Assembly (NCBI GenBank): GCA_051546255.1
Contig: CP128815.1
Location: forward strand, 1,426,001-1,490,000
Length of the DNA: 64,000 nt
Direction: 5' to 3'
Origin: Meyerozyma guilliermondii
Taxonomy: Eukaryota
The translations under genes were made by a program, and so were the position numbers. Positions 20,215 through 34,565 of this stretch are shown here, piece by piece (within the stretch, counting starts at the first letter, position 1; each line of letters begins with the position of its first letter). The notes beneath the pieces were generated by a model, which had not been told where the DNA came from, did no database searches, and worked only from the letters and a program-made list of their open reading frames with translations.

Positions 20215-21753
20215 ATGACGAACGAGGAAAAACCCGAACCAGAGGTCGCAGAAGTGTCAAGTGTATCAGATGTCAGTTCCATAGACATGAAAGGTCTCGA
20301 TGCTGGTGACAGTATTCTACACCAAAAGATAAAGCTTATAAATGATGCCATAGACGAGATTGGATTCACGCCGTACCATCTCAAGATTTTTTGTCTTAGT
20401 GGTATGGGCTACGCTACAGATTCGCAACTAATGTATGTTGAAAGCAGTGTTCGAACTTTCGTCAATTATCAGTTTGGATACACCTACCCTGTCAGCAACC
20501 AGTGTCTCTACTTGGGTATGATTTTGGGTGCGTTTTTTTGGGGGTTTGGAGCAGATTTAATTGGAAGAAAGTTGGCTTTCAATTTATCTCTTTTGCTTTC
20601 TGCTGTACTTACAATCCTTGCCGGGGCCATGGGTTCTTTTGCAACCTACAACCTCTTTGTGCTTCTTTCATGTTTTGCAGCAGGAGGAAACTTGGTCTTG
20701 GATGCTTGTGTGTTTTTGGAATTTCTTCCCAAGAAGAACCAATGGCTTTTAACTTTCTACGCCTTTTTTTGGGGAATTGGTCAAACTTTGGCAGTTCTTT
20801 TCGCTTGGGCTTTCCTTCCAAAGTACTCGTGTGAGTCAGCTGATTACTGTCCTTCTCACATCAATAAAGGCTGGAGATACACTTATTACGTTAATGGAGC
20901 GTTTGTGCTCGTGATGGCCCTTCTTCGTATTTTTGTTGTCAGATTGAAAGAGACACCAAAGTTTTCAGTTTCTAACAATCGTGATGCAGAAGCAATTGAT
21001 GTCCTTCAATACATTGCAAAAAAATACAACAGATCGTGCTCTTTGACTTTAGAGGAACTTCAGAGCTGTGGAGAAGTAACTGCAAATCAAGACTTTCGAA
21101 GCAAGGCCGATTTGCTCAATACCTTCAAGTATTCATGGAAACATATCAAGATTTTGTTCAACAACAAAACTACAACAAAATCTACCATTCTTTTAATGAT
21201 TTCATGGGCCCTTTTGGGTATAGCATACCCTCTTTATTCGGCCTTTTTACCTCAGTATCTTGCTTCCAGAGGTGACAATATAAGTGCTCCAGACACTTAT
21301 GGCGTCTATAGGGACAACGTTATAAGTAATCTTTGCAGTTGCTTTGGACCTATGATAGCTGGACTAATGCTCTACTATATGCCTTGGATTGGTAGAAAAG
21401 GTGTAATGGTATTTGGAGGATTATCAACTATGGCTCTATTATTCGGCTACACTCAAGTCACCAATAGAGCTGGAAATGTGGGTTTGAGTTCTGCCGTTTA
21501 CATTACCCTTTACATCTACTACGGATGCATATATGCTTATACTCCGGAGGTGATGCCGTCAGCGGCTCGAGCGACTGGAAATGCAATTTGCATAGGTTTA
21601 ACCAGAATCAGCGGAGTGATCGTACCAACCATTGCTTATTTTGCGGGAGTTACTACTGCTATTCCCATTTGGATATGCGGAGCCGTAGTGGGGATTATTG
21701 GTTGCATCGCATTGCTCTTTCCTTATGAACCCAGCAAAATGAGAGTTGTCTAA
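20215..21753 (+). CDS. MFS transporter, substrate unknown
   Basis: About 12 TM segments, ADLIGRK motif A, ETPKF, YAYTPEV; ATG at 20215. Confidence 0.85.
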   Translation: MTNEEKPEPEVAEVSSVSDVSSIDMKGLDAGDSILHQKIKLINDAIDEIGFTPYHLKIFCLSGMGYATDSQLMYVESSVRTFVNYQFGYTYPVSNQCLYLGMILGAFFWGFGADLIGRKLAFNLSLLLSAVLTILAGAMGSFATYNLFVLLSCFAAGGNLVLDACVFLEFLPKKNQWLLTFYAFFWGIGQTLAVLFAWAFLPKYSCESADYCPSHINKGWRYTYYVNGAFVLVMALLRIFVVRLKETPKFSVSNNRDAEAIDVLQYIAKKYNRSCSLTLEELQSCGEVTANQDFRSKADLLNTFKYSWKHIKILFNNKTTTKSTILLMISWALLGIAYPLYSAFLPQYLASRGDNISAPDTYGVYRDNVISNLCSCFGPMIAGLMLYYMPWIGRKGVMVFGGLSTMALLFGYTQVTNRAGNVGLSSAVYITLYIYYGCIYAYTPEVMPSAARATGNAICIGLTRISGVIVPTIAYFAGVTTAIPIWICGAVVGIIGCIALLFPYEPSKMRVV

Positions 21754-21833
21754 GACGAGAGTTGTCTATTTATTACAAATTTCTACTTTATTTTCTCTAC
21801 GTCATATCTCGTCAACACCCTGTATTATATTAT

Positions 21834-22483
21834 TTACTCGTCATCTTCCTCTTCTTCGTCAGCGACGGAGTAGAATTGCAATTGGTATTGGTTCTGCTTT
21901 ACAGAAACAAATCTGATCCAATCTCTGATTTGGTTCTTCTTCAAGTATCTCTTGGTCAAGTATTTCAAGTACTTACCGGAAAACTTGGTGTTGGAAACAA
22001 CAACAACCTTGTTACCTTCTTCGGTAACAGAGATGTCATCACCCAAGTTACCGACAATGTTGTCGACCTTGATGTGCTCAACCAAGTACTTGACGTAACC
22101 TTCTTGGTCGAAAACACCGTTCTCAACTGGAGCGCTGGTGTCAACGACGAATTTCTTAGCAGCCTTAGCCTTCTTGTTGGTCTGTCCTGTTAGCCTACCG
22201 CACTATTATCAAATGATAAAGACAGCATAGCCCAGGAACGGGGTGTTGAACTGGAGCAAAAAAAAGCCACTTAACAAGGTTAAGTCACCTGTAGAAAGAA
22301 AAAAAAGCTCATGGTGGTAAAAACAATGCACATTGGCATGAATGCTTGGGTGAAAAATTTATGAAAAGGCATCAAAAAAAACCCAAATATTCTGTCTTTA
22401 AACCGTTAAGGTATTGTCCTCTCAAACACACCCGTAATAGGGATACTGATCTTCTAAACGCTAATACTTACAATTGGAGCCAT
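21834..22483 (-). CDS. RPL22: 60S ribosomal protein eL22, 2 exons (22483-22472, 22181-21834)
   Basis: MAPI, then a 290-nt intron (GTAAGT...GGCTAACAGGACAG), then [14 protein letters not shown]...[27 protein letters not shown]. Confidence 0.95.
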
Positions 22484-22559
22484 TATTATAGAAGTAGTGA
22501 TACTATTGAATTTACCTGCGACTGAAAAAAATTACCGAGCGAAACCGCGATGAATGTTG

Positions 22560-22596
22560 CACGTGCGTCTGTCACGTGCGTTAGGGCATTCAGCCC
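22560..22596. promoter_or_regulatory. Cbf1 (CACGTG x2) plus Tbf1 (TTAGGGC) module upstream of RPL22
   Basis: CACGTG at 22560-22565, TCACGTG at 22572-22578, TTAGGGC at 22581-22587; Tbf1/Cbf1 is the known ribosomal-protein gene regulator pair in C. albicans. Confidence 0.65.
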
Positions 22597-22703
22597 GGTG
22601 CTCATGAGTCGCGACTACTCAACTGCTTGGCGACTATCGAGTTATCTTGAGTCATGACTCACGAGATTTATGTTGGGAACCCCGCAACATTATTCGAACG
22701 ATA

Positions 22704-23918
22704 ATGATTCGCTGTAAAAGAGGGTTCAAGATTCTGCACTTTTTACGCAAGCCTTTCGCTCAAGAAGCTGCTGGTGCCTCGGCAACTTTTAAACCACTCA
22801 ATGGTCCAAATTTGGGTGCAAAAATTCCACTTGATTCTACAAAAGATTCTCTTCAATCTGAAAAAAATTCCAATGAGTCCACTCAATCTGCAATGGAGCG
22901 TGCAAAGTCCGCCACGACTCCGATTAAGAATTGGACTCGGCAACAAATCAAAGAAATCTATGATACACCACTCATGGAATTAGTCTTTCAAGCTCAAATG
23001 CAACACCGTAAATTTCATGATCCTAGTGAGGTTCAATTGTGTACACTTTTATCCATCAAAACTGGAGGATGTAGTGAAGATTGCAAATATTGTGCCCAGT
23101 CATCACGTTACGATACTGGGACAAAAGCGGAAAAGTTACTCACCATTGATGAAGTGATGAAAGCTGCCACTATTGCCAAGCAAAATGGTTCCACTCGATT
23201 TTGTATGGGTGCTGCTTGGAGAGATATGAAAGGAAGAAAGTCGGGTATGCGAAAGATCTCGGAGATGGTGTCGAGAATCAACGATGAACTTGGTATGGAA
23301 ACTTGTGTGACATTAGGAATGCTTGATGCTCAGCAAGCCAAGGATTTGGCAGCGTCTGGTTTAACGGCTTACAATCACAATATTGATACTTCTCGAGAAC
23401 ATTACCCCAATGTTATCTCCACTAGATCGTTCGACGATAGGTTAGAAACCATCAAGAATGTCCAGAAAGCAGGTATTCTGGCGTGCACAGGAGGCATTCT
23501 TGGCTTAGGCGAAACCCCCGACGACCATGTTGGGTTTCTCCATACACTTGCAAATATGGACCCTCATCCTGAATCACTCCCAATTAATAGATTGGTTCCT
23601 ATTGCTGGAACTCCCATGAAGGCAGAAATCGATGCTTTGCCCAAAGACTCGAATAGAAGACTAAAATTGGATCAGGTAGTCAAGACCATTGCTACGGCTA
23701 GAATGATCATGCCCCAGGCAATTATTCGATTGGCAGCTGGAAGATACACCATGAAGGAACACGAGCAGTTTATATGCTTTATGGCGGGCTGTAATGCTAT
23801 CTTTACTGGTGAAAAGATGCTAACCACCATGTGCAATGGCTGGGATGAAGATATCATAATGCTTGAAACCTGGGGATTAAAACCCATGAAAAGTTTCCGC
23901 AAGCACACTGTGGTCTAG
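22704..23918 (+). CDS. BIO2: Biotin synthase (radical SAM)
   Basis: CSEDCKYC, RFCMGAAWR, YNHNIDTS, PESLPIN, RLAAGR; ATG at 22704. Confidence 0.96.
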   Translation: MIRCKRGFKILHFLRKPFAQEAAGASATFKPLNGPNLGAKIPLDSTKDSLQSEKNSNESTQSAMERAKSATTPIKNWTRQQIKEIYDTPLMELVFQAQMQHRKFHDPSEVQLCTLLSIKTGGCSEDCKYCAQSSRYDTGTKAEKLLTIDEVMKAATIAKQNGSTRFCMGAAWRDMKGRKSGMRKISEMVSRINDELGMETCVTLGMLDAQQAKDLAASGLTAYNHNIDTSREHYPNVISTRSFDDRLETIKNVQKAGILACTGGILGLGETPDDHVGFLHTLANMDPHPESLPINRLVPIAGTPMKAEIDALPKDSNRRLKLDQVVKTIATARMIMPQAIIRLAAGRYTMKEHEQFICFMAGCNAIFTGEKMLTTMCNGWDEDIIMLETWGLKPMKSFRKHTVV

Positions 23919-25129
23919 TGGTCTTCAACAGGCAGTCTCGAGTTCCGATATAGGACCAGATCAGAGTTTCCAATTTTTGGTAGCTCAAAAGAAGTATCCA
24001 CGGGAGACGAACAGCTTTCTTGTTCAGAATGAACAGGAGTTGAACGTTCTATGACCGAGGTTGGCGATGCAATGGGTGGTCCTCCTTGATTTATAGCGTC
24101 TATAGTATCGTCATTGTCGGAATGTATGCTCTCATTGGCTGCTAGTACATCATCTGTGTCCACTTGATGCTCAGGTTCAACCGCAGAACCAAAGAGATCG
24201 GGAGCAATTGACAAAAGCTCATCGAGTCCTCCACCAGACCAGCCTTTCCTTGCTATACCTTCGTAGATTTCTAGCTGCGCCCGCACGAAAGAGCCGGTTT
24301 TCAAAACTAGTTGATCTCCACTAAAATGCTCCAATATTGCATTCACTTCATGGTAGTAGTCATGCTTAAGTCGATCAATTTCGTCAACCTGGTTCGTAAG
24401 CTGGACTAGGTTCGACTTGTAAGCATTGAGGTTTCTCGTTCTCAGTTTGGATAGCTTAATATTCTCGAGTTCTTTTTGACGAAGCCTCTTGGTTTTCTCT
24501 CGAACCTCTTGCTGGTAATACTCGTGATTTGACTTGTAATCCAGCTTGACTTTAGCCAATGCTTCCGCAAGAGGGACCTGAAACGACTCTTTAAGTGTGC
24601 GTGCTAGTATCAGCTCGTTGGTGCCTATTATATATTGCAAACCAGCTGCATTTACAAGCCCTTCACTGACCTCTTTACGGTAGTTAATTTTTGGGCTTTT
24701 CACGGACTCCTCCAACGCCTGACCAAAATCACTAGCTGCCTCGGCTACAGCGTGGAGCGCCCGGCTATATTTGTCGGCTTTAGTTAACAATTCTTCATAA
24801 CACTCGACAGTCGACTGGAAGTCTCTCGGTCCCAAGATGTACGGAAGATCCATAACCGACGGCGTAAACGAGGTGAAAGTGTTTAGGGATAGCTGACGAG
24901 TCACTTGCCTTCCGCGTACGGACTCTGGAAGTGCCAGCAGTCGGGAACTAGTTGGAAAAGACGAATTTATGTTGGCTGAAGCATTGGATCTATTCTTGAT
25001 TTGAGCATATAAATCATCCGAATGTGATGCCGAAGGTCCTGGTGGTCCGAGAGACGCGGGCGTGATCAGGGAGTAGTTATTTGGCAGCTGGAACGAGGAA
25101 TCCAGCTCCTTCAGTGTTGGGTCTGACAT
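23915..25129 (-). CDS. IVY1: I-BAR phospholipid-binding protein Ivy1-like
   Basis: Helical I-BAR region, RNLNAYK, VRAQLEIYEGIARKGWSGGGLDELL. Confidence 0.75.
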   Translation of the reverse strand: MSDPTLKELDSSFQLPNNYSLITPASLGPPGPSASHSDDLYAQIKNRSNASANINSSFPTSSRLLALPESVRGRQVTRQLSLNTFTSFTPSVMDLPYILGPRDFQSTVECYEELLTKADKYSRALHAVAEAASDFGQALEESVKSPKINYRKEVSEGLVNAAGLQYIIGTNELILARTLKESFQVPLAEALAKVKLDYKSNHEYYQQEVREKTKRLRQKELENIKLSKLRTRNLNAYKSNLVQLTNQVDEIDRLKHDYYHEVNAILEHFSGDQLVLKTGSFVRAQLEIYEGIARKGWSGGGLDELLSIAPDLFGSAVEPEHQVDTDDVLAANESIHSDNDDTIDAINQGGPPIASPTSVIERSTPVHSEQESCSSPVDTSFELPKIGNSDLVLYRNSRLPVEDH

Positions 25130-25175: not shown

Positions 25176-25248
25176 TGGACGAGTCCGGAGTCGAACCGGA
25201 GACCTTTCGCATGCTAAGCGAACGCGCTACCAACTACGCCACACGCCC
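25176..25248 (-). tRNA. tRNA-Ala(AGC)
   Basis: GGGCGTGTGGCGTAGTTGGTAGCGCGTTCGCTTAGCATGCGAAAGGTCTCCGGTTCGACTCCGGACTCGTCCA; cloverleaf folds, T-run terminator follows. Confidence 0.96.
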
Positions 25249-25434
25249 TGTTATTGATAACGGAAATGGTGCGAAAAAATAAGAGAAAAGAATGAGAAGG
25301 AATGCTGCAAAAAGAATGCTGCGAAAAACATAAAAGAGTTGTGGCAAATAAACCGTGTCATGTATTCATGTACATTTGTTAATTATAGATCTTCATATAT
25401 TTGACTGCATGCGATATATGAACGGCTATGAATT

Positions 25435-27096
25435 CTACTTCTTGTTGGTTGCATAGTCAACTACTACTGCTGCTGCGAGTATTTTCTCGTCTTCAAACTT
25501 CTTACCAACAACTTGAACACACACAGGCATTCCATCAAATAATTCAGGTTTATAGGTCTTGTAGACCTTTTCATCGCTGTCATTCAAAGGTACGTAGTTT
25601 GGATCAATGGGGTCGAGTGTTTTGTCCACTTTGTTCACAGGTACAACAACGCTAGCACTGTCAAGAAGGTTAAATGGACAAGAGTAGTTGAGTGAATCAT
25701 GGTAGCCTGGCAAGAAAGCAGTAAATGGCCAAACAGGGCAAATTATAGCATCAATCGGCTTTCCAGATCCAGTAATACTTGCGGTTTGTTCCCAGAATTT
25801 ATAGAATTCTTGTTGACAATCGTATTGCTGGTTGCACAAATTCCACCATTCATTCACATCAATTGGGCTTTCTCCTGGTTTGGAACAAACAAATCCTTTA
25901 ACAGCTGGAACCACAGGCTCGCCTGACTCTTTACACATTTCCTGAACTTCAAGGCCCTTATCAGCCGTGAAAATATTCATCGCTGTTTCATAGATTTTGT
26001 CCATGTTTGGTAACTGGATTTCGACAATTTCATGTCCCTCAGCTTTCAAGGATTTGGCTGTTTCCTCCAAAGCACGCTGAATAGGAGGGTGTGGTCGGAC
26101 CACTCCGTCGAATTTCCATAATCCGTATGTCAATTTCTCTTGCTTAACGCTGGAATTATCAGAGAAAGGAACGGGCGCAACTTTTGGGTCTGATTTCCAA
26201 AGTTTTCCATTGAAGATGAGTTTGGTGATATACTCGATATCAGCTAGAGACCGGGCCATTGGTCCAATGACAGAAGGCATGGTTGTTTGTCCACTATACG
26301 AGTTTGATACTCTTAAATATGAGATTCTATTGCTCGTTGGCCGCAATCCATAAAGTCCCTGGAATGCGCTAGGAATACGAATGCTTCCGCCAATATCTGT
26401 TCCAAAACCCAAGGGCGAGGCTCCGGCTCCAATTAAGGCTCCTTCACCTCCTGAAGATCCACCAGTACTCAATTGCAAATTTAAAGCATTATAGGTGTAA
26501 CCAAAAATGTTGGAGTCAGTTTGTGGGGCCAACATTGCCATAGGAACGGTTGTCTTTACGTAAAATACGGCTCCTTCCTTCTGCAAATACTCAGCCAACA
26601 AACTCATTTCTGTCTTGGGTTTATTGAGCAAGGCCACATACCCAATGGACGAATCGAGCCCGGGAAGGTCAACTTGGTCTTTGAGAGAGATGGGGATTCC
26701 ATGTAATTTTCCAACCACAGTCCCGTTTTTCGCAAAGTACTCATCTAGTTTCTTTGCCGTTTCCAATGCTTTGTCAAAAAAGATCTCGCTACAGCAGTTC
26801 AAGATCTGGTGTGCCAATGCTGCTCGATGACAGTAGGCATTTGCAACACTTGCAGCCGTCAAGTCACCACTTGCAATCTTAACTTGAAGTTCAAGCACGG
26901 TCAATTCGGTGATGGCAACTTCTTCCTCGGGAAGAATTGAGTCCAAATAAGCCTTGGTATTGGAAAACCCTGCTTTGATCATATCATCTTTGATTGTCTC
27001 ATTGACCCATTTTGAGGGTATGGAATTATTCACTGAAATTCTTTTGAGCTGCGCTGCATCTTCCCAGTTCTTAGTCATGGTGTTGTCGTAACGCAT
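25435..27096 (-). CDS. Amidase-signature family enzyme (acetamidase/Amd2-like)
   Basis: LHGIPISLKD (Lys), GGSSGGEG and GTDIGGSIRIP; Ser-cisSer-Lys triad intact. Confidence 0.92.
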   Translation of the reverse strand: MRYDNTMTKNWEDAAQLKRISVNNSIPSKWVNETIKDDMIKAGFSNTKAYLDSILPEEEVAITELTVLELQVKIASGDLTAASVANAYCHRAALAHQILNCCSEIFFDKALETAKKLDEYFAKNGTVVGKLHGIPISLKDQVDLPGLDSSIGYVALLNKPKTEMSLLAEYLQKEGAVFYVKTTVPMAMLAPQTDSNIFGYTYNALNLQLSTGGSSGGEGALIGAGASPLGFGTDIGGSIRIPSAFQGLYGLRPTSNRISYLRVSNSYSGQTTMPSVIGPMARSLADIEYITKLIFNGKLWKSDPKVAPVPFSDNSSVKQEKLTYGLWKFDGVVRPHPPIQRALEETAKSLKAEGHEIVEIQLPNMDKIYETAMNIFTADKGLEVQEMCKESGEPVVPAVKGFVCSKPGESPIDVNEWWNLCNQQYDCQQEFYKFWEQTASITGSGKPIDAIICPVWPFTAFLPGYHDSLNYSCPFNLLDSASVVVPVNKVDKTLDPIDPNYVPLNDSDEKVYKTYKPELFDGMPVCVQVVGKKFEDEKILAAAVVVDYATNKK

Positions 27097-27123
27097 AGAG
27101 ATATCGCCCGTATTTAACTGGAA

Positions 27124-27319
27124 GATAAGGAAGAAAGATTACAGAGCGCATTACTAGCAAGCACTTATTCTGGTAGCGGCATTCGGAATGCGGAATTCGG
27201 AAACGCGGCGCTCTCGCCTGCTATCGTGGGGAATTCGGAATTCGGATCTCGCCTGCTACTGTGGGGAATTCGGATCTCGGATCTCGGATCTCGCATCTCA
27301 AAAAGTGCGATAAGATAAG
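27124..27319 (+). promoter_or_regulatory. GATAAG nitrogen-catabolite (Gln3/Gat1-type) elements
   Basis: GATAAG at 27124-27129 and overlapping GATAAGATAAG at 27309-27319. Confidence 0.6.
27177..27297 (+). repeat. 7-bp periodic CGG array containing a 28-bp direct repeat, in a divergent promoter
   Basis: CGG at 27177, 27184, 27191, 27198, 27206, 27236, 27243, 27271, 27278, 27285; TCTCGCCTGCTA(TC/CT)GTGGGGAATTCGGA at 27212-27239 and 27247-27274. Confidence 0.85.
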
Positions 27320-27392
27320 GTTTCTTGAGTCAAGTCCATTATGCTAGCGGCGACTATATAGTCTCTGAACGGTTTCCCGTTCAACTCTAACA

Positions 27393-29405
27393 ATGGAGCC
27401 AATTCTCAGTCAAGCTTATGGATATGGATTTGCAGTTGGTTTGGGCGCAGCTTTTGCACTTTTGATGGTGGTTATCACTCGGGTACTTGCAAGTTATTTG
27501 GGCCAGGTGCAAAATTCCGAACGTTTTTCGACAGCTTCGAGAAGCGTCAAATCAGGATTGATTGCCTCGAGCACTGTTTCAGCGTGGACTTGGCCAGCTA
27601 CACTTCTTTCTTCGGGATCGTGGAGTTACTCTCATGGTATCAGTGGAGGCTTTTTGTATGGAGTTGGAGGAACTCTTCAAATTACTTTGTTCTTATTTTT
27701 GGCTATACAGATCAAGAGAAGTGCCCCTTCCGCCCATACGGTTTCTGAATGTTTCTATATCAGATTTGGCAAAGCTGGACACTGGGTTTTCTTGGTCTAC
27801 TGTATGGCGACGAATGTCTTGATTTCGGCTCTTTTACTCTTGGGAGGTTCCCAAGGATTTGCTGCTACCACTGGAATGCATGTCGTTGCTGCTAGTTTCT
27901 TGTTGCCTCTCAACGTGGTTGTATATACTGCTTTGGGTGGTTTGAAAGCGACATTTGTCTCAGACTGGATCCATACGGTGATCATTTATGGAGTTTTGCT
28001 CGCTACTGCTTTCACCGTTTATTGTTCTTCGTCTCTCATTGGGTCCCCGGGAAAGATGTACGACCTTTTAGTGCTGGCACAAGAGGCTTTCCCTTCCGAA
28101 ACAGGCCAAAGTTACCTTTCTTTCAATGACAAGTCGATGTTCTTTCTTACCTGGTCTGTGGCTGTTGGTGGGTTAAGTTCGGTTTTTGGCGATCCAGGAT
28201 ACTCCCAAAGAGCAATTGCTTCTGATGCTTCGAGCGTGTTTACTGGTTACTTGATGGGAAGTCTCTGCTGGTGGATTATTCCGTTCTCTCTTGGACTGTC
28301 AGCGGGCTTGGCATGCAGAGCATTATTGACCAACACTGCCTCGGTCACATTCCCCAATGCTTTGTCGTCGTATGAGGTTGATGCGGGATTGCCAGTGATT
28401 TATGGAATGGCTGCAGTCTTTGGCAAAAGTGGTGCTGCTGCTGGTTTGGTAACATTGTTCATGTCTGTGACGTCTGCCACTTCTGCCGAGTTGATTGCGT
28501 TTTCTTCGGTCACTACGTACGACGTTTACCGAACTTACGTCAACCCCGGTGCTTCTGGAAAGCAATTGGTCAATGCAGCTCATATATCTGTGGTTGGATT
28601 TGGTATTTTCATGGCTGCATTGGCAACTGCACTCAATTATATTGGAGTCACCGTTGGCTGGCTTCTTAGTTTCTTGGGAATCTTGTTGACTCCAGAAGTC
28701 AGTGCCGTAACCTACACGTTATTCTGGCCCAAAATGACCAAATTGTCCTTGATAATTGGATGTCCTCTCGCTACCGCAACTGGTATTGCAAGTTGGATTG
28801 GTGCTACCTACCATTATGCGGACGGAGTACTCAGTAAAGATACTTTGATGACCACAGAGGCTACTTTCATCGGAAATTTTGTCTCGTTAGCGAGTGGTGC
28901 CATTTATATTGCTGTATTTTCGTTGTTGAAACCCGATAAGGATGCGTTCGATTTGCGTAATTTGAATGGAGAACTCACTTTGGCAGACGATGTTGATAAA
29001 GAAGAGAAAGAAGCAGTGCTTGTATCCAAAGATGTGCAAAAATTACTTAAGAGACATTCATGGCTTAGTTTGCTGGTGAATCTTTTCGTGGTTCTTGGAG
29101 TGTACATTATAATTTGTGTTGCATTATATGGAACCAAGAGAGATTTGTCAAAGAGCTCTTTCACTGGTCTTATCATTGTTATGTTGATCTGGCTCGTTGT
29201 TGCGTCTGCGTATATCATTCTCTTTCCATTATGGCAAGGAAGACAATCCATGGCCCGCATTGCGAAACACTTCATCCTGCGAGGAAAATCTGAAGAACTT
29301 ACGAAAACAGAACAAAGCTCTGACCAGGCAACGCTCGACTCCGAGTCCAATGTTTCTATCATTGAGGAACATCATACTAGCAAGGTGGCTAATGTGGTAG
29401 CGTGA
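27393..29405 (+). CDS. Sodium:solute symporter, Dur3 (urea/polyamine/amide transporter) family
   Basis: ILSQAYGYG, SAWTWPATLL, YTALGGLKATFVSDWIHT, FMSVTSATSAELIAFSS, TYDVYRTY. Confidence 0.9.
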   Translation: MEPILSQAYGYGFAVGLGAAFALLMVVITRVLASYLGQVQNSERFSTASRSVKSGLIASSTVSAWTWPATLLSSGSWSYSHGISGGFLYGVGGTLQITLFLFLAIQIKRSAPSAHTVSECFYIRFGKAGHWVFLVYCMATNVLISALLLLGGSQGFAATTGMHVVAASFLLPLNVVVYTALGGLKATFVSDWIHTVIIYGVLLATAFTVYCSSSLIGSPGKMYDLLVLAQEAFPSETGQSYLSFNDKSMFFLTWSVAVGGLSSVFGDPGYSQRAIASDASSVFTGYLMGSLCWWIIPFSLGLSAGLACRALLTNTASVTFPNALSSYEVDAGLPVIYGMAAVFGKSGAAAGLVTLFMSVTSATSAELIAFSSVTTYDVYRTYVNPGASGKQLVNAAHISVVGFGIFMAALATALNYIGVTVGWLLSFLGILLTPEVSAVTYTLFWPKMTKLSLIIGCPLATATGIASWIGATYHYADGVLSKDTLMTTEATFIGNFVSLASGAIYIAVFSLLKPDKDAFDLRNLNGELTLADDVDKEEKEAVLVSKDVQKLLKRHSWLSLLVNLFVVLGVYIIICVALYGTKRDLSKSSFTGLIIVMLIWLVVASAYIILFPLWQGRQSMARIAKHFILRGKSEELTKTEQSSDQATLDSESNVSIIEEHHTSKVANVVA

Positions 29406-29589
29406 GAACGATCAACTGATAGAATGGAATATAACCAGGTGGTAGACACTATTGGACAATAAGGATAGAACTAATAGAACGATATAGAATGATATGAACT
29501 GTATTGCGGATACATTTTTTTTTGCAATCTCTATGTTATGAGCCTTGGCCCCTGGAACACTTATATTTCTTATCGCGCGCACTTTCTGT

Positions 29590-31499
29590 ATGCAACCGAT
29601 AAAAAAGAGGAGAGCACCTAGGACTTCCCGGGCCTGTCAAAACTGTAGAAAACGCAAGATTAAATGCAAGGGCGAGCCTGTGTGCCAAGAGTGTGCTAAG
29701 TATGGCGAAGTTTGTATCTTTAGAGCAAAATATAGAGAATCTTCAAAGCCTAATGAACTCAACAAAAGTAATATAGGAGAGTAAGTAAACACAAATGAGC
29801 CCAAAAATAAGCATTTACTAACAAATCCAGCAACAATATCCTCAGCAAAGGCCCGCTAGAAATTCCTGACTACTTATCGGGCCAAAACGACACTACAGAA
29901 GCAGAATATTTTGGCTCGGCGAGTAACTTTTCATTCGTCAACCAATTGAATCATTTTCTACGACAGCTCGATGGGTCAAACTCCAACAATGATAAAGGGC
30001 TTGAGAGGTTTGGAGCCAAGCCCACGGTATTGGCAGATTCCTGGTCAAACGACGATTTCTCCTTGGATTCTATCAGCAACGAAACCATGAATGAACTCTT
30101 AGTTGCGTTTCTTGAAACCTGGACAATTCCCTGTCCTTTATTTGATGCCGACCAAGTGTTCACGTTGGCTTTTGACACTTGGAAAAATCCGTATAGCAAT
30201 GCCAACGACCAGGCGCTTCTCTACTTGATATTATCTCTTGGAGCAGCGACTTCCTACTTTGATATGGACGAAAGTAGTCCTAATGCCTTTCCTGTTGCCA
30301 GGGGCTTTTTCAGCTTGGCTCGCAATACCGTACCAACTATATGTTCCCAAGTGTCTTTTGAAGCCGTTAGAGTGGTGTTTTTCATGAGTTTGTGTGCTTG
30401 TTCTTTGGGTGACACTGCCCTTTCTTACCTCTATGGTGGTATTGCGGTGAGAATCCTGGTGGCTATTGGACTCCATAAAAATAGCATAGTGAAGAAAATG
30501 CCCCATTCTTTCGATTCAAGGCACCACAGAAGAGTATGGGTGTGTGTTTGGCAATTTGAGAAATACTGGAGCTTTTGTGTGGGTCGACCCAGCGGCTTAA
30601 GTGAGTATGTTGCAACTCCTCAGGTGAAGGAAGAAGACTTCGAGTACGCAGGATATGGAGAATCCAAATCGTTCAGAAAGACTTCTGAACATATGAAACT
30701 CCGGGTGAGTTTTGCGTCTTCGCTATCAAAAATTCATGCCGAATTGTACAACTCGAAGAACGAACTTTTGGCTATTTTGAGCAAGGTGGAGCGTTTTTCA
30801 ATTGAGATCGACCAAGCATATTTTAACAGCCGAGACAGACAATTGGTCCAAGCTAACGTCGATGATAGTGTGGACCAACTTGAAAGGTCAACGGTTATCG
30901 AATGGTTCTGGATCAGAATCTACTACCTTTATTTGAAACTCATTATCTTTCGTCCATTCTTGATCTTCAGTGCTTATCTTGGAAACGCCGCTACTAATGT
31001 TCCAGACTCAATCAAGAACAAAATCAAATCGGGATCCGATACCTGCGTTGATGTTGCAATTGAATTATCCAACTTTATAATTGAGTTGAACAGTAAGGTG
31101 CGTATGGCGCAACCTATAATCTTTATCAGCACTTATCTTGAAAGTGCTTCGACTGTTCTCCTATTCTATATTGTCAGCAACATCACTGATATCTCCGATG
31201 CATTGGCGAGAAAAATTTGGAATGTTTTGCATGCTACTCGAAACTTTCTTAATGGTTCATATGGAAGCTACCTCGATACCACGAAAATTTTGGCTCGAGA
31301 TGGTTTGGAGTCATTGCACAATTTACTAAAAAAGAGAAAGAACGATAAAAACACCACATTTCTTGACAAGATCATGAAGCCAGTCGTGATAGGCTCTCCA
31401 ATGACTCAAATCAATTCAATAGACTTACAAGACGACGCTGGTTTAGAAGCGGTGTGGGCGCAAACTTTGAACTGGATTAGTTATGCACCGCAAATGTGA
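29590..31499 (+). CDS. Zn(II)2Cys6 transcription factor with fungal TF middle domain, 2 exons (29590-29780, 29831-31499)
   Basis: ACQNCRKRKIKC..C..C......C in exon 1; 50-nt intron GTAAGT...TACTAACAAATCCAG joins in frame to EYFGSASNFSF...IGLH...RRVWVC...GRP. Confidence 0.9.
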
Positions 31500-31605
31500 T
31501 ATAAGAACATTCCATGCTCTATTGAAGGTTAAGATTACCTTCACTCCAATATTTCGGCTCAAAAAGAGAAATGGTAAGATTTGAGTTGCAAAAAAGAACG
31601 AATAA

Positions 31606-31679
31606 TGGTCCCTGGCGGGATCGAACCGCCGATCTTGGCGTTATTAGCACCACGCCTTAACCAACTGGGCCAAGGGACC
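31606..31679 (-). tRNA. tRNA-Ile(AAT)
   Basis: GGTCCCTTGGCCCAGTTGGTTAAGGCGTGGTGCTAATAACGCCAAGATCGGCGGTTCGATCCCGCCAGGGACCA. Confidence 0.96.
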
Positions 31680-31901
31680 ATTTTCTGATTTGTTCATTAA
31701 GTTCGCCAGTCAAGACGTAGCTCACATTACATTGTAGAGATTATCAATTTAATCGTATTTTACTTTGCCACCAACGGACAAGTGATAGTAGTGAGCGAGA
31801 AGCCTGCATTTGCAATTTCGCGGCTTTTTGATAAAACCGCATAATCACCAGTTTTTTGCCTCGAGTATAAATATCTCGTAGATTCGCATTTATGAGAATA
31901 A

Positions 31902-32162
31902 ATGCATATTAAGAGATTGGTTTTAGGTTTAGCAAATGCGTTAGCGATTGTATGTCTGGACACCCCAGAAGGTGAAGGTTTACCATCTGGTTCAATACCT
32001 AGACGTCTAGATGGCTCAACATGGATACCTTCTGACCATGGAACCTGGGGTAATAATCTCGACTTGAGTCAAATGGAAAGATTGAATCCTTCAGCATATC
32101 TGAGAATTATAGCGAGGTCTTCTGCAGAAGAGCCGGGAAGTCGAGCAACGGATACAAATTGA
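31902..32162 (+). other. Short ORF with a signal-peptide-like N-terminus (possible small gene or remnant)
   Basis: MHIKRLVLGLANALAIVC...; TATAAA about 35 nt upstream; no homology recognised. Confidence 0.3.
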
Positions 32163-32501
32163 CCCGTAAACTCGCATTTTTTTTGGAAGTCTATTAATAG
32201 CTCAGAGAAGTCAATTTAAGATTTGAAACTCAAAAAGTTGTATTCCTCGAGGATCTTGTTTCCGCTAGACTCATATTGAGACCCATTAACTCAGTGAAGT
32301 TTCTTTCGTGTATCGTACGCACCTTTAGTCTTTCTGAAAAATGTGACGCTCATTAGGCTTTAACAACTTCTTGAATGAGCTCGTTGAAAACTTGCGTGAA
32401 ACAGTTGCCACCCTCGAAATCATCACCATGATGTCCAGTCATGCGCTTTGAGTAGCCAGAAATGTTCGTTCATCATTTTCTTCATAAGTCTTTTGATCAG
32501 G

Positions 32502-32804
32502 TCAAAAATGCAAAAGATCCTTGAAAAAACTTTCAGTTATATTGTATAAGTCGAGATAATCAAATACCTCCTTGGAAACAACATTAGAATACAATTTTCT
32601 CTTATCCGTCGTATAGTTTGAAAAATTGCACGTACTTAACAATTCTATCATACATGATTTATATGTGGGAAACATTATTCCATCTCCATTCCATATTACT
32701 GGACCACAATACGGATCAGAAACATGAACATCTTCGGGGGTGAACAATCCATCATCGAGACATTTAGCTAGTGGAAGAAGTAAAGCAAGTTGGAACAATA
32801 GCAT
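32502..32804 (-). CDS. Putative small secreted orphan protein (100 aa)
   Basis: ATG at 32804 gives MLLFQLALLLPLAKC (signal-like), with Cys residues and N-glycosylation sequons NFS, NYT, NIT. Confidence 0.45.
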   Translation of the reverse strand: MLLFQLALLLPLAKCLDDGLFTPEDVHVSDPYCGPVIWNGDGIMFPTYKSCMIELLSTCNFSNYTTDKRKLYSNVVSKEVFDYLDLYNITESFFKDLLHF

Positions 32805-32987
32805 GGCACTTCTCGGTTTGAATTCTGTGCGAAATTGAACCTTCAGTAATCTACCCCACAAATTTAAGAGTTGTCAATATGCACTTTATAGGACATAAAT
32901 AGTTTGGTACTGTCATTCGTTCTTTGCTAAAATGAATTGTTGTTTTCACTTTGGCGAAAAATCGCAAGTGAAAAGCTCCGTATGCAA

Positions 32988-34565
32988 CTATTTAAATGCA
33001 GCTATAGCTCGTTCCAAAGCGGCTCTGTTCCGAAGTAATAAGGTAGCACAACGATTCAGAGCCTTCTTCTTTGAGACGTCAACGGCAGTGCTAAGCGTTC
33101 GGCCTCGAATTGAGAGCCTTGCCTTAAAACTGCCATCTATTTCTTCAACTTGATATTGTGGAATTTCATCAGGACCCAAGTTTTTGGTGACAATGGCATA
33201 TAGCTGGTTTCTAGCATCAGCGTCAACCACCTCACTTCCATCAGAAACCAACGGAAACTGGCGATCGACTATATCAAGTTTGTTAAATCTTGCCTCCACT
33301 TTTGGAGATTCCAGTCTTCTTGTGGAGCTGATCACCGACACAGAACGATCAGTATTGGAGCGTAAACGGCCATATTTTGTCAATACTGGTTTATTGGTGA
33401 GAGCGTGCATCGCAGCCCGCAATCCTGCTTCCTTGTGACTTGGCGCTCGTCCAACACCCAATATTTCACCGTTCATGGTACAAGCTATTTCGAACTGCTT
33501 TTCGCTTCCGTCTCCTTCAACAATCACTTCGTACTGCGGATGTAATGCTGCGGTGCCAATGAGTGAGTATAATTCAGCTTTTGCGTCTTTATTGACTTCC
33601 TTGATGCCTTTCATGTCTCTCGCAATGGAACCTAATTTGTCTTTCATGAGCTTCTTGAGCCACGCTTTGATCTCGGTAATATCGTACTTGCGATCAATAA
33701 TAAGGGCACCTATGTATGCTTCAAACAAGTCTGCATAGATCTTTTGTTTGCCATTGCGTAAATCTTCCTCGTTAATATTACTTTTCAACTTTTTATCAAA
33801 GCCGTACGCCAATGAGAATTCCGTCAAGAAAGCATTGTTGATGAGCAGCGCACGGATTCTAGAGAGCTCACCTTCTGAGGCTGTGGGAAATTGTTCAAAA
33901 ATGATCAAAGTGACCACATTATTCAAAATAGAATCACCTAAAAATTCAAGTCTTTCGTTATGAGAGTTGATGAGCTCAGACATGGCCAAGTACGATTTGC
34001 TATTAGTAGTGGATTTGTGTACGAAAACCCGCGCAGCTAGCTCTGGATCTTTGATGGTAGGAAGTGGAGGAATGCCTTCAACTTGGTTGTTTTCGTCGTC
34101 AGTGGGTACCGCAATTCTCTTTGTCCCATTTGGAGCTTTTGTTTCACCTGCCAGTTTAGGACTGTAGCTAAGTCCATCTGCAAGTATCGAATCCACAACA
34201 GGTATCTCACCGTCCAAATACATGGATTTTAACGATGAAGCCAGCCAAACTGACTTGTTCAATAACATGGCCTGTTTCGTTTCATCATCGATTGCATCAG
34301 AAACGACTATTTTGTTTAATTGGCGTTGATCAGGACATTCATCTAGCAAGGTTCGTAAGTTCTTCTTTATTATCTGGTACGAGTGTTCGATCCGCTGGAC
34401 ATCAGTAATTCCCAACTCGACGGTTTTATCCACAGATTGCTTTTTGGTCTTTTGTGTCGAGATAGATTCAGAAATTCTTTTGGTGGAAGGAGCAACCGAG
34501 TACTCTGACGCACTGGCCCCTCGGTTTAAAGACTCAATAAAGTCATCGTAAGAGGAATCTGGCAT
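32988..34565 (-). CDS. RNase III with two dsRBDs (Rnt1 / budding-yeast Dcr1 type)
   Basis: HNERLEFLGDS and YADLFEAYIGAL catalytic motifs; dsRBD1 DAKAELY...GRAPSHKEAGLRAA; dsRBD2 DARNQLY...SKKKALNRCA. Confidence 0.9.
   Translation of the reverse strand: MPDSSYDDFIESLNRGASASEYSVAPSTKRISESISTQKTKKQSVDKTVELGITDVQRIEHSYQIIKKNLRTLLDECPDQRQLNKIVVSDAIDDETKQAMLLNKSVWLASSLKSMYLDGEIPVVDSILADGLSYSPKLAGETKAPNGTKRIAVPTDDENNQVEGIPPLPTIKDPELAARVFVHKSTTNSKSYLAMSELINSHNERLEFLGDSILNNVVTLIIFEQFPTASEGELSRIRALLINNAFLTEFSLAYGFDKKLKSNINEEDLRNGKQKIYADLFEAYIGALIIDRKYDITEIKAWLKKLMKDKLGSIARDMKGIKEVNKDAKAELYSLIGTAALHPQYEVIVEGDGSEKQFEIACTMNGEILGVGRAPSHKEAGLRAAMHALTNKPVLTKYGRLRSNTDRSVSVISSTRRLESPKVEARFNKLDIVDRQFPLVSDGSEVVDADARNQLYAIVTKNLGPDEIPQYQVEEIDGSFKARLSIRGRTLSTAVDVSKKKALNRCATLLLRNRAALERAIAAFK

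What the first reader, a model, noticed from the sequence alone, without database searches (positions are those of the whole stretch)
25176..31679. tRNA-bounded amidase / Dur3-type transporter / Zn2Cys6 regulator cluster: candidate undescribed nitrogen-scavenging module
Seen: an intact amidase and a Dur3-family symporter are transcribed divergently from a 296-bp intergenic region, with a Zn-cluster TF directly downstream. tRNA-Ala and tRNA-Ile bracket the trio. Established: enzyme + transporter + Zn-cluster regulator is the typical layout of fungal catabolic clusters. Inference: the module imports and hydrolyses a specific amide or urea-like nitrogen source under both inducer control and nitrogen catabolite repression. 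It lies between housekeeping genes (IVY1/HEM1 on one side, RTN1/TRM8/MRPL11 on the other) whose S. cerevisiae homologues are neighbours, so it may be a lineage-specific insertion. The substrate cannot be read from the sequence.
Basis: partly seen in the sequence, partly recalled or inferred. Interest (0 to 1): 0.75.

Follow-up and report, generated by a model that had tools for sequence, protein, structure and literature searches.

The report
Conserved yeast amidase–transporter–regulator gene cluster
This is a real three-gene nitrogen-scavenging unit (an amide-splitting enzyme, a urea-transporter-like importer and their probable switch) that turns out to be old and widespread in yeasts rather than a local insertion, and whose food molecule is still unknown.

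Summary
An amidase (25435-27096, -) and a DUR3-family symporter (27393-29405, +) diverge from a 296-bp spacer. A Zn2Cys6 regulator follows, and I found a 50-nt intron in it. tRNA-Ala and tRNA-Ile bracket the trio.

It is not lineage-specific. Homologues of amidase and transporter share a contig in 31 cases, against about 0.2 expected. They are adjacent by locus tag or accession in six named species, including S. pombe. Pairing follows the paralogue clades (25/25 and 9/9). The regulator is co-located in CTG-clade and Pichiaceae yeasts.

The amidase keeps its Lys-Ser-Ser catalytic residues. The transporter keeps the proton-coupling residues of plant DUR3 and 7 of 9 urea-pocket residues. It replaces two urea hydrogen-bond donors (N305 to Gly, Y461 to Leu), and all 121 subfamily members lack the Tyr.

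The shared promoter has three GATAAG sites and a unique array of CGG-N4-CGG repeats.

Best reading: an inducible, nitrogen-repressed module that imports and hydrolyses a small urea-like amide. The substrate is unproven. The layout resembles the MAL loci. Ten literature searches found no description of the cluster. Moderate interest.

The parts
25176..25248 (-). tRNA-Ala (anticodon AGC), left boundary
   Evidence: ARAGORN; Rfam RF00005 60.4 bits
25435..27096 (-). Amidase-signature enzyme, 553 aa (AmdS/Fah1 type). Catalytic K139, S214/S215 (GGSSGG) and S238 (GGSIR). No membrane anchor.
   Evidence: PF01425, E 5.6e-103; catalytic residues conserved in 119-120 of 120 aligned rows; maximum 19-residue hydropathy 1.05; best solved relative 6kvr_A, E 9.2e-96.
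27097..27392 (.). 296-bp divergent promoter shared by amidase and transporter
27124..27129 (+). GATAAG site (candidate GATA-factor / nitrogen catabolite repression element)
27176..27299 (+). Array of direct CGG repeats at 7-bp period (GCGGAAT / TCGGAAT / TCGGATC units). It includes a 35-bp tandem duplication at 27212-27286. Candidate binding array for the adjacent Zn2Cys6 factor.
   Evidence: 6 of the window's 18 CGG-N4-CGG and all 4 TCGGAWNNCGGA lie here, all on one strand.
27309..27319 (+). Two overlapping GATAAG sites (GATAAGATAAG)
27393..29405 (+). DUR3-family proton symporter, 670 aa, of a subfamily with an altered urea pocket (G260 and L425 in place of AtDUR3 N305 and Y461; TM6 motif GDPGYS)
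29590..29780 (+). Zn2Cys6 regulator, exon 1 (Zn cluster CX2CX6CX5CX2CX6C). A GATAAG site on the minus strand lies at 29569-29574, just upstream.
   Evidence: (PF00172, E 6.4e-9)
29781..29830 (+). 50-nt intron of the regulator gene (GTAAGT, TACTAAC at 29816-29822, CAG)
   Evidence: sequence; spliced model in frame, collinear with homologues
29831..31499 (+). Zn2Cys6 regulator, exon 2 (fungal-specific transcription factor domain)
   Evidence: PF04082, E 3.3e-20
31605..31680 (-). tRNA-Ile (anticodon AAT), right boundary
   Evidence: ARAGORN; Rfam

Best explanation
The locus is one copy of an old, widely conserved yeast catabolic cluster. A DUR3-family proton symporter imports a small urea-like amide. 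This could be a short aliphatic amide such as acetamide, formamide or propionamide, or a carbamate, rather than urea itself. A soluble Ser-cisSer-Lys amidase hydrolyses the amide in the cytosol and releases ammonium for assimilation. Both genes are read outward from one 296-bp promoter. Nitrogen catabolite repression would act through its GATAAG sites. The neighbouring Zn2Cys6 factor would induce the pair by binding the array of direct CGG repeats. The architecture is that of the S. cerevisiae MAL loci: permease and hydrolase divergent, activator alongside.

Shown here: the gene identities, intact catalytic and proton-coupling residues, the altered transporter pocket, the promoter motifs, and conserved clade-matched linkage.

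Inferred: the substrate class, the regulator-promoter link and the nitrogen control.
For: Linkage:
- Among the best 120 amidase and best 120 transporter homologues, 31 contig lengths coincide. The control gives 0.196 per offset. Of these, 22 are contigs of 4.8-80 kb.
- Locus tags or accessions are adjacent in D. fabryi, C. pseudohaemuli, L. mirantina, C. arabinofermentans, K. capsulata and S. pombe.
- Co-located pairs follow the paralogue clades: A1 with T1 in 25 of 25, A2 with T2 or T3 in 9 of 9.

Regulator:
- 11 of 30 homologues share a contig with an amidase or transporter hit, against 0.06 expected.
- Four short contigs of 6.3-34 kb hold all three genes.
- C. arabinofermentans has consecutive accessions ODV86004-86006.

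Enzyme:
- K139, S215 and S238 are conserved in 119-120 of 120 rows.
- There is no hydrophobic anchor.

Transporter:
- It matches AtDUR3 at E 1.3e-108.
- W93, W95, T98, Y117, Q124, Y315, W338 and the proton residues D312, E402, H222 are conserved.
- N305 becomes Gly and Y461 becomes Leu.
- Passages of PMC11840088 report that Y461A almost abolishes urea uptake by ScDUR3, and that N305 and Y461 hydrogen-bond urea.
- None of 121 subfamily members has Tyr at that position.
- 52 of the best 150 family representatives have the canonical N/Y pair.

Promoter:
- It has 3 GATAAG sites and a unique CGG-N4-CGG array.
Against: - There are no expression, growth or transport data for any member. Everything functional is inference.
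- The closest solved amidase (6kvr) and the S. pombe orthologue (Fah1) are named fatty acid amide hydrolases. That would point to lipid amides, not imported small amides. I saw no assay behind either name.
- The pocket argument rests on two positions, mapped through a sequence alignment to a plant protein.
- By recall, ScDur3 also carries polyamines, so the subfamily might carry something unrelated to amides.
- Several other non-canonical DUR3 subfamilies exist.
- The CGG array is partly a recent 35-bp tandem duplication plus 7-bp repeats. It could be neutral repeat expansion.
- Orthologous promoters could not be read, because no fungal DNA collection was available.
- In K. capsulata the closest regulator homologue is unlinked.
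- Homology of S. pombe Grt1 to this regulator was not tested.
- 86 of the 120 listed amidase homologues and 89 of the 120 listed transporter homologues showed no shared contig. For most of these, linkage is simply undeterminable.
Confidence: 0.55

Rival explanations
1. The transporter is an ordinary urea or polyamine importer like Dur3, and the amidase has an unrelated substrate. They sit together only because both are nitrogen-regulated genes sharing GATA elements.
For: The transporter matches DUR3 strongly and keeps 7 of 9 pocket residues and all three proton-coupling residues. Databases name its orthologues 'urea active transporter'. GATAAG sites lie in the shared promoter.
Against: Linkage persists across deep paralogue splits and is clade-matched, 34 of 34 pairs. 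That is hard to explain without a functional tie. The Tyr whose loss almost abolishes urea uptake in ScDUR3 is absent from all 121 subfamily members. By recall, yeasts use urea amidolyase or urease for urea, not an AmdS-type amidase.
Confidence: 0.2
2. The enzyme is a true fatty acid amide hydrolase acting on endogenous or environmental lipid amides. The transporter handles a product or a related small amine.
For: The best solved relative, 6kvr_A, is named 'Fatty acid amide hydrolase' (E 9.2e-96). Mammalian FAAH chains follow at about E 1e-53. NCBI names the S. pombe orthologue Fah1.
Against: The protein has no membrane anchor. Other sources name orthologues 'acetamidase'. A lipid amide would not need a DUR3-type importer. 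I found no assay data behind the FAAH names; the C. albicans structure paper could not be read.
Confidence: 0.1
3. One reading: the trio is a lineage-specific insertion, possibly horizontally acquired and flagged by the flanking tRNA genes.
For: tRNA genes bracket the trio. The flanking gene order differs from S. cerevisiae (recalled). A relative's contig of 6258 bp and the 6409-bp contig carrying the identical amidase end close to the trio, as if repeats flank it there too.
Against: The closest named relatives of all three proteins are CTG-clade yeasts: Debaryomyces, Yamadazyma, Sungouiella, Scheffersomyces. The cluster is present across CTG clade, Pichiaceae, Saccharomycetaceae and S. pombe. 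In both trees the window groups with its closest relatives. Two tRNAs flanking one block among about 40 intergenic regions is only weakly unusual and was noticed post hoc.
Confidence: 0.1

Closest known systems
S. cerevisiae MAL loci (MALx1 permease, MALx2 maltase, MALx3 Zn2Cys6 activator); recalled knowledge
   Same: The three-gene logic is the same. A proton symporter and a hydrolase are read divergently from one short promoter, with a Zn2Cys6 activator gene next door. Repeated binding sites for the activator lie in the shared promoter.
   Different: This is a nitrogen-source module, not a sugar module. It uses amidase and DUR3 families instead of glycosidase and MFS families. It has GATA sites in place of glucose-repression elements. 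The regulator-promoter link is not shown here.
Aspergillus nidulans amdS acetamidase system (AmdS with AmdR, FacB and AreA control); recalled knowledge
   Same: It has the same enzyme family, an amidase-signature enzyme of about 550 aa. Orthologues of the window enzyme are annotated 'acetamidase'. Control combines GATA-factor nitrogen repression with Zn2Cys6 induction.
   Different: By recall, amdS is not clustered with a transporter or its regulators, and no dedicated amide permease is known there. Orthology of the window enzyme to AmdS itself was not tested, because no AmdS sequence was in hand.
DUR3 urea/proton symporters (AtDUR3 structure 9j7c; ScDur3)
   Same: The fold family and length are the same. 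The match is E 1.3e-108. The tryptophan pair, Y117, Q124 and Y315, and the proton-coupling residues D312, E402 and H222, are conserved.
   Different: N305 becomes Gly and Y461 becomes Leu. The TM6 motif is D-P-G-Y-S instead of D-(Q/N)-x-Y-W. These changes are fixed across the 121-member subfamily. The gene partner is an AmdS-type amidase rather than urea amidolyase.
S. pombe SPBPB8B6.02c / SPBPB8B6.03 (fah1) / SPBPB8B6.04c (grt1)
   Same: The transporter (67% identical) and amidase (57%) are orthologues with consecutive accessions. The next systematic name, grt1, is a DNA-binding transcription factor (PMC9938405 passage). All three were up in an mst1 mutant (PMC2823694 tables).
   Different: The order appears to be transporter-amidase-factor rather than amidase-transporter-factor. 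Grt1's homology to the window regulator was not tested. The S. pombe pair nests among budding-yeast sequences.

Membership tests
Amidase signature (AS) family, PF01425 | Profile match over the whole domain | tested here: met
   E 5.6e-103, profile positions 3-445 of 445
Amidase signature (AS) family, PF01425 | Ser-cisSer-Lys catalytic triad and GGSS(G) motif | tested here: met
   K139, S214/S215 and S238 are present and conserved in 119-120 of 120 aligned rows. The assignment of these motifs to the triad is recalled knowledge of the family.
AmdS-type acetamidase | Hydrolysis of acetamide supporting growth on it | not testable with these tools
   Only homology-based names are available: 'Acetamidase' in S. 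stipitis, 'putative acetamidase' in S. pombe.
Fatty acid amide hydrolase (FAAH) | Membrane association through an N-terminal transmembrane helix (mammalian FAAH-1, recalled) | tested here: not met
   maximum 19-residue hydropathy is 1.05 overall and 0.85 in the first 60 residues.
Fatty acid amide hydrolase (FAAH) | Activity on long-chain acyl amides | not testable with these tools
   The best solved relative, 6kvr_A, carries the name. No assay was seen.
DUR3 subfamily of sodium:solute symporters | Full-length similarity to solved DUR3 | tested here: met
   9j7c_A at E 1.3e-108, residues 4-620 against 32-652. PF00474.
DUR3 subfamily of sodium:solute symporters | Proton-coupling residues D312, E402, H222 (AtDUR3 numbering) | tested here: met
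   D267, E366 and H194, invariant in 121 of 121 subfamily rows.
Canonical urea-specific DUR3 | Complete urea pocket W93, W95, T98, Y117, Q124, N305, Y315, W338, Y461 | tested here: not met
   7 of 9 are kept. N305 becomes G260 and Y461 becomes L425. Tyr is never found at that column in 121 subfamily rows.
Fungal Zn2Cys6 transcription factors | Six-cysteine Zn cluster plus fungal-specific transcription factor domain | tested here: met
   PF00172 at E 6.4e-9 in exon 1 and PF04082 at E 3.3e-20 in exon 2; the spliced model is collinear with homologues.
Fungal catabolic gene cluster | Linkage of the genes conserved across species | tested here: met
   Linkage was inferred from shared contigs, locus tags and accessions, not from DNA.
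Fungal catabolic gene cluster | Co-regulation by the clustered factor and by the substrate | not testable with these tools
   Only promoter motifs are available, plus S. pombe array tables where the three genes rise together among many others.

The most novel reading that the evidence does not exclude
The DUR3-like subfamily defined here (Gly and Leu in place of N305 and Y461, TM6 motif D-P-G-Y-S) is a dedicated permease for amides other than urea. That would make it the missing eukaryotic acetamide or short-amide transporter. It has travelled with an AmdS-type amidase as a two-gene unit since before the paralogue clades split. It also moved as a unit, perhaps with its regulator, between budding yeasts and the S. 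pombe lineage.
Probability: 0.25. Interest if true: 0.6.

Novelty: new member of a known kind. Interest (0 to 1): 0.4.

Why it matters
If the reading is right, this widespread and functionally untested yeast gene pair names a candidate transporter for small amides. By my recollection no dedicated fungal transporter for them is known, even though amdS and acetamide are in everyday use as a selection system. It would also show how two residue changes could retune the DUR3 urea pocket. The cluster would add a nitrogen-source example with the same layout as the MAL loci. It offers a compact test case for why permease-hydrolase pairs stay linked through duplication and possible horizontal transfer. 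For this window taken alone, the result is mostly an annotation: a conserved cluster, not a lineage-specific novelty.

Tried and rejected
- **Lineage-specific insertion or HGT into this lineage.** Rejected on distribution and trees.
- **HGT of the pair into S. pombe.** It nests among budding-yeast sequences in both trees. The AU test rejects budding-yeast monophyly for the amidase (p 0.0186) but not for the transporter (p 0.114). The group was named after seeing a first tree, so this stays only suggestive.
- **Homology of S. pombe Grt1 to the window regulator.** Could not be tested. The regulator search returned 30 hits, none from S. pombe.
- **The 1.3-kb gap at 31700-32988.** Four ORF fragments gave 0 Pfam families at E up to 1. 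Rfam found nothing beyond the tRNAs.
- **The C. albicans FAAH structure paper.** Not held.
- **Literature.** Ten full-text searches found no description of the cluster. Subscription journals and unsearched PMC articles remain unchecked.
- **Synteny in relatives, orthologous promoters and tRNA flanks elsewhere.** Not checkable.
- **Complex prediction and structure prediction.** Not used. No binding claim is made, and a solved DUR3 gave the residue map directly.


Full report
**Observation**

- ARAGORN finds only two tRNA genes in the 64-kb window: tRNA-Ala(AGC) at 25176-25248 and tRNA-Ile(AAT) at 31605-31680, both on the minus strand. Rfam confirms both.
- Between them lie three genes:
  - a 553-aa amidase ORF at 25435-27096 (-);
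  - a 670-aa symporter ORF at 27393-29405 (+);
  - a Zn2Cys6 factor gene.
- The amidase and symporter are separated by exactly 296 bp and read outward.
  - Its zinc cluster is on a separate exon (29590-29780).
  - A 50-nt intron follows, with GTAAGT, TACTAAC and CAG signals (29781-29830).
  - The spliced 619-aa model is in frame. It aligns as a single segment, about residues 4-616, to 9 of 9 full-length homologues carrying both domains.
- I read the DNA with the CTG=Ser code. One of the transporter's four CTG codons falls in a conserved column where 29 of 30 named non-CTG-clade homologues have Ser or Thr. The other three fall in variable columns, one of them mostly hydrophobic. The code does not affect any conclusion.

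**Surroundings (Pfam)**

- Left of the trio, in order, are:
  - a gamma-tubulin complex protein;
  - HEM1;
  - an MFS transporter (20215-21753);
  - BIO2 (22704-23918);
  - an IVY1-like IMD-domain protein (23915-25129).
- Right of tRNA-Ile is a 1.3-kb stretch without a recognisable gene, followed by:
  - RNT1 (32988-34565);
  - an L10-type mitochondrial ribosomal protein;
  - TRM8;
  - RTN1;
  - PEP5/VPS11.
- So the trio is not simply dropped between two genes that are neighbours in S. cerevisiae. Several other genes also separate HEM1 from RTN1 here. The S. cerevisiae positions are recalled, not tested.

**Is the grouping conserved?**

No fungal DNA collection was open, so I inferred linkage from the protein searches.
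- The amidase search listed the best 120 of 5073 hits. The transporter search listed the best 120 of 166. The regulator search returned 30.
- Each hit comes with the length of the longest contig that carries it.
- Thirty-one contig lengths are shared between the amidase and transporter lists. As a control I shifted one list by 1 to 500 bases either way, which gives 0.196 coincidences per offset.
- Twenty-two of the 31 are contigs of 4.8 to 80 kb, so the two genes must lie close together there.
- Of the nine named assemblies among the 31, six also show adjacency by tag or accession:

| Species | Adjacent tags or accessions |
|---|---|
| Debaryomyces fabryi | AC631_03816 / AC631_03817 |
| Candidozyma pseudohaemuli | C7M61_003642 / C7M61_003643 |
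| Lachancea mirantina | LAMI_0C00298g / LAMI_0C00320g |
| Candida arabinofermentans | ODV86005 / ODV86006 |
| Kuraishia capsulata | KUCA_T00005416001 / KUCA_T00005417001 |
| Schizosaccharomyces pombe | CAD27908 / CAD27909 |

- In Yamadazyma tenuis, Candida anglica and Pachysolen the two genes share only a large scaffold.
- For the regulator:
  - 11 of 30 homologues share a contig length with an amidase or transporter hit (0.06 expected).
  - Six lengths carry all three genes, among them contigs of 6258, 12823, 23010 and 33827 bp.
  - In C. arabinofermentans the factor, amidase and transporter have consecutive accessions. In K. capsulata the nearest factor homologue (39% identity) is far away on the same scaffold.
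  - In a Scheffersomyces-like relative all three proteins sit on one 24,216-bp contig.
- The remaining 86 of the 120 listed amidase hits and 89 of the 120 listed transporter hits showed no shared contig. For most of them that is uninformative, because the contigs are short or the partner fell outside the lists.

**Trees**

- FastTree trees of all listed homologues have the same shape.
- The amidases split into clade A1 and clade A2:
  - A1 has 76 rows: the window, S. pombe Fah1, Lachancea and Zygosaccharomyces, Kuraishia, CTG-clade and Pichiaceae yeasts.
  - A2 has 44 rows.
- The transporters split into T1 (82 rows, same membership pattern as A1), T2 (10), a pair of two rows, and T3 (27).
- Every co-located pair is clade-matched: A1 with T1 in 25 of 25, A2 with T2 in 7 and with T3 in 2.
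- The association therefore predates these duplications, or the pair duplicated as a unit.
- In both trees the window proteins group with their closest relatives. The nearest named ones are CTG-clade yeasts (Debaryomyces, Yamadazyma). Nothing suggests recent foreign origin in this lineage.

**S. pombe**

- Its pair, SPBPB8B6.02c and SPBPB8B6.03, is 67% and 57% identical to the window proteins.
- It nests among budding-yeast sequences, next to the Candida boidinii and Pichia group for the transporter (SH-aLRT 96).
- Holding budding-yeast sequences together is rejected for the amidase (log-likelihood difference 40.1, AU p 0.0186). It is not rejected for the transporter (difference 19.3, p 0.114).
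- The group was defined after I had seen a tree. Transfer of the pair is therefore suggestive only.
- The next systematic gene, SPBPB8B6.04c, is grt1, listed as a DNA-binding transcription factor (passage of PMC9938405).
- In array tables of PMC2823694 the three genes all rise in an mst1 mutant, along with many other genes.
- Whether Grt1 is homologous to the window regulator stayed untested.

**The enzyme**

- The Pfam Amidase match is end to end.
- The motif residues K139, S214/S215 (GGSSGG) and S238 (GGSIR) are present and conserved in 119-120 of 120 aligned rows.
- There is no hydrophobic segment that could anchor it in a membrane.
- The nearest solved structures are 6kvr_A 'Fatty acid amide hydrolase' (E 9.2e-96) and 8wv2_A 'Amidase family protein' (E 1.1e-74). 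Mammalian FAAH and metagenomic urethanases follow.
- By recall 6kvr is the Candida albicans enzyme of Min et al. 2019. I saw that paper only in two reference lists and could not read it.
- Database names for orthologues disagree ('acetamidase', 'Fah1', 'Amd2p'). All appear to rest on homology.

**The transporter**

- It is a genuine DUR3-family member.
- I mapped the residues reported for Arabidopsis DUR3 (passages of PMC11840088) through the gap-free parts of the alignment:

| AtDUR3 residue | Role reported in PMC11840088 | Window residue | Kept? |
|---|---|---|---|
| W93 | urea pocket | W65 | yes |
| W95 | urea pocket | W67 | yes |
| T98 | urea pocket | T70 | yes |
| Y117 | urea pocket | Y89 | yes |
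| Q124 | urea pocket | Q96 | yes |
| Y315 | urea pocket | Y270 | yes |
| W338 | urea pocket | W293 | yes |
| D312 | proton coupling | D267 | yes |
| E402 | proton coupling | E366 | yes |
| H222 | proton coupling | H194 | yes |
| N305 | hydrogen-bonds urea | G260 | no |
| Y461 | hydrogen-bonds urea | L425 | no |

- That paper reports that Y461A almost abolishes urea uptake in ScDUR3.
- Across the 121 subfamily rows the Y461 column is Leu, Ile, Met or Phe and never Tyr. The N305 column is Gly in 110 rows. The seven with Asn are the Candidozyma group.
- All 121 carry D-P-(G/S)-Y-(S/G/A) where canonical proteins have D-(Q/N)-x-Y-W.
- A search of 1.84 billion representatives found 2827 relatives. 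Among the best 150, 52 have the canonical Asn/Tyr pair.
- Losing two polar contacts to one end of urea, while keeping the rest of the pocket and the proton machinery, fits a urea analogue in which one amino group is replaced by a non-polar group. This is an inference, not a measurement.

**The promoter**

- The 296-bp spacer has three GATAAG sites at 27124, 27309 and 27314. The window holds 35 in 64 kb, giving 0.16 expected here and Poisson P about 6e-4 before correction for about 40 intergenic regions.
- A further GATAAG lies just upstream of the regulator's ATG (29569-29574, minus strand).
- The centre of the spacer (27176-27299) is an array of CGG triplets at 7-bp period, with GCGGAAT, TCGGAAT and TCGGATC units. 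It includes a 35-bp tandem duplication.
- It holds 6 of the window's 18 CGG-N4-CGG matches and all 4 TCGGAWNNCGGA matches, all on one strand.
- By established knowledge, Zn2Cys6 factors bind paired CGG triplets. The neighbouring factor is the obvious candidate, but nothing here shows binding, and the array could be neutral repeat growth.

**Comparison and novelty**

- The architecture is that of the S. cerevisiae MAL loci. The enzyme and the control logic recall the A. nidulans amdS system. Both comparisons are recalled.
- What differs is the pairing of an AmdS-type amidase with a DUR3-type importer of altered pocket, conserved through deep duplications.
- Ten full-text searches found no paper describing the cluster or a substrate. 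Subscription journals were not searchable.
- I file it as a new member of a known kind: a real, conserved and functionally untested catabolic cluster, not a lineage-specific novelty of this genome.

Noticed in passing
window 31700-32988: A 1.3-kb stretch between tRNA-Ile and RNT1 has no intact gene. It holds only broken minus-strand ORF fragments (for example 32502-32873 and 31760-32068). These gave no Pfam match at E up to 1 and no Rfam match. It could be a decayed gene or a transposon remnant next to the tRNA.
   Followed up: partly
window 20215-23918: An MFS transporter gene (20215-21753, +) lies directly upstream of biotin synthase BIO2 (22704-23918, +). This may be a second transporter-enzyme pairing, such as a vitamin or precursor permease.
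   Followed up: no
proteins P0031 and P0165 (S. pombe chromosome II); trees: The S. pombe amidase-transporter pair nests among budding-yeast sequences. The AU test rejects budding-yeast monophyly for the amidase (p 0.0186) but not for the transporter (p 0.114). This hints at transfer of the pair between subphyla.
   Followed up: partly
proteins P0230 (S. pombe chromosome I) and P0228 (Pachysolen): A second S. pombe DUR3-like transporter groups tightly with a Pachysolen T3-clade protein (SH-aLRT 100). The Pachysolen protein shares a scaffold with an A2-clade amidase. So the paralogous pair type may also span both subphyla.
   Followed up: no
window 23915-23918: The BIO2 ORF (+, ends 23918) and the IVY1-like ORF (-, ends 23915) overlap by 4 bp at their stop codons. 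This is an unusually tight convergent junction.
   Followed up: no
hits P0004 (6409-bp contig) and P0008/P0126/P0245 (6258-bp contig): Assembly contigs carrying the trio in this organism and in a 71-79% identical relative are about as long as the tRNA-to-tRNA interval (6505 bp). It looks as if assemblies break at repeated sequence on both sides. That would mean the tRNA or repeat flanks are shared with the relative.
   Followed up: no
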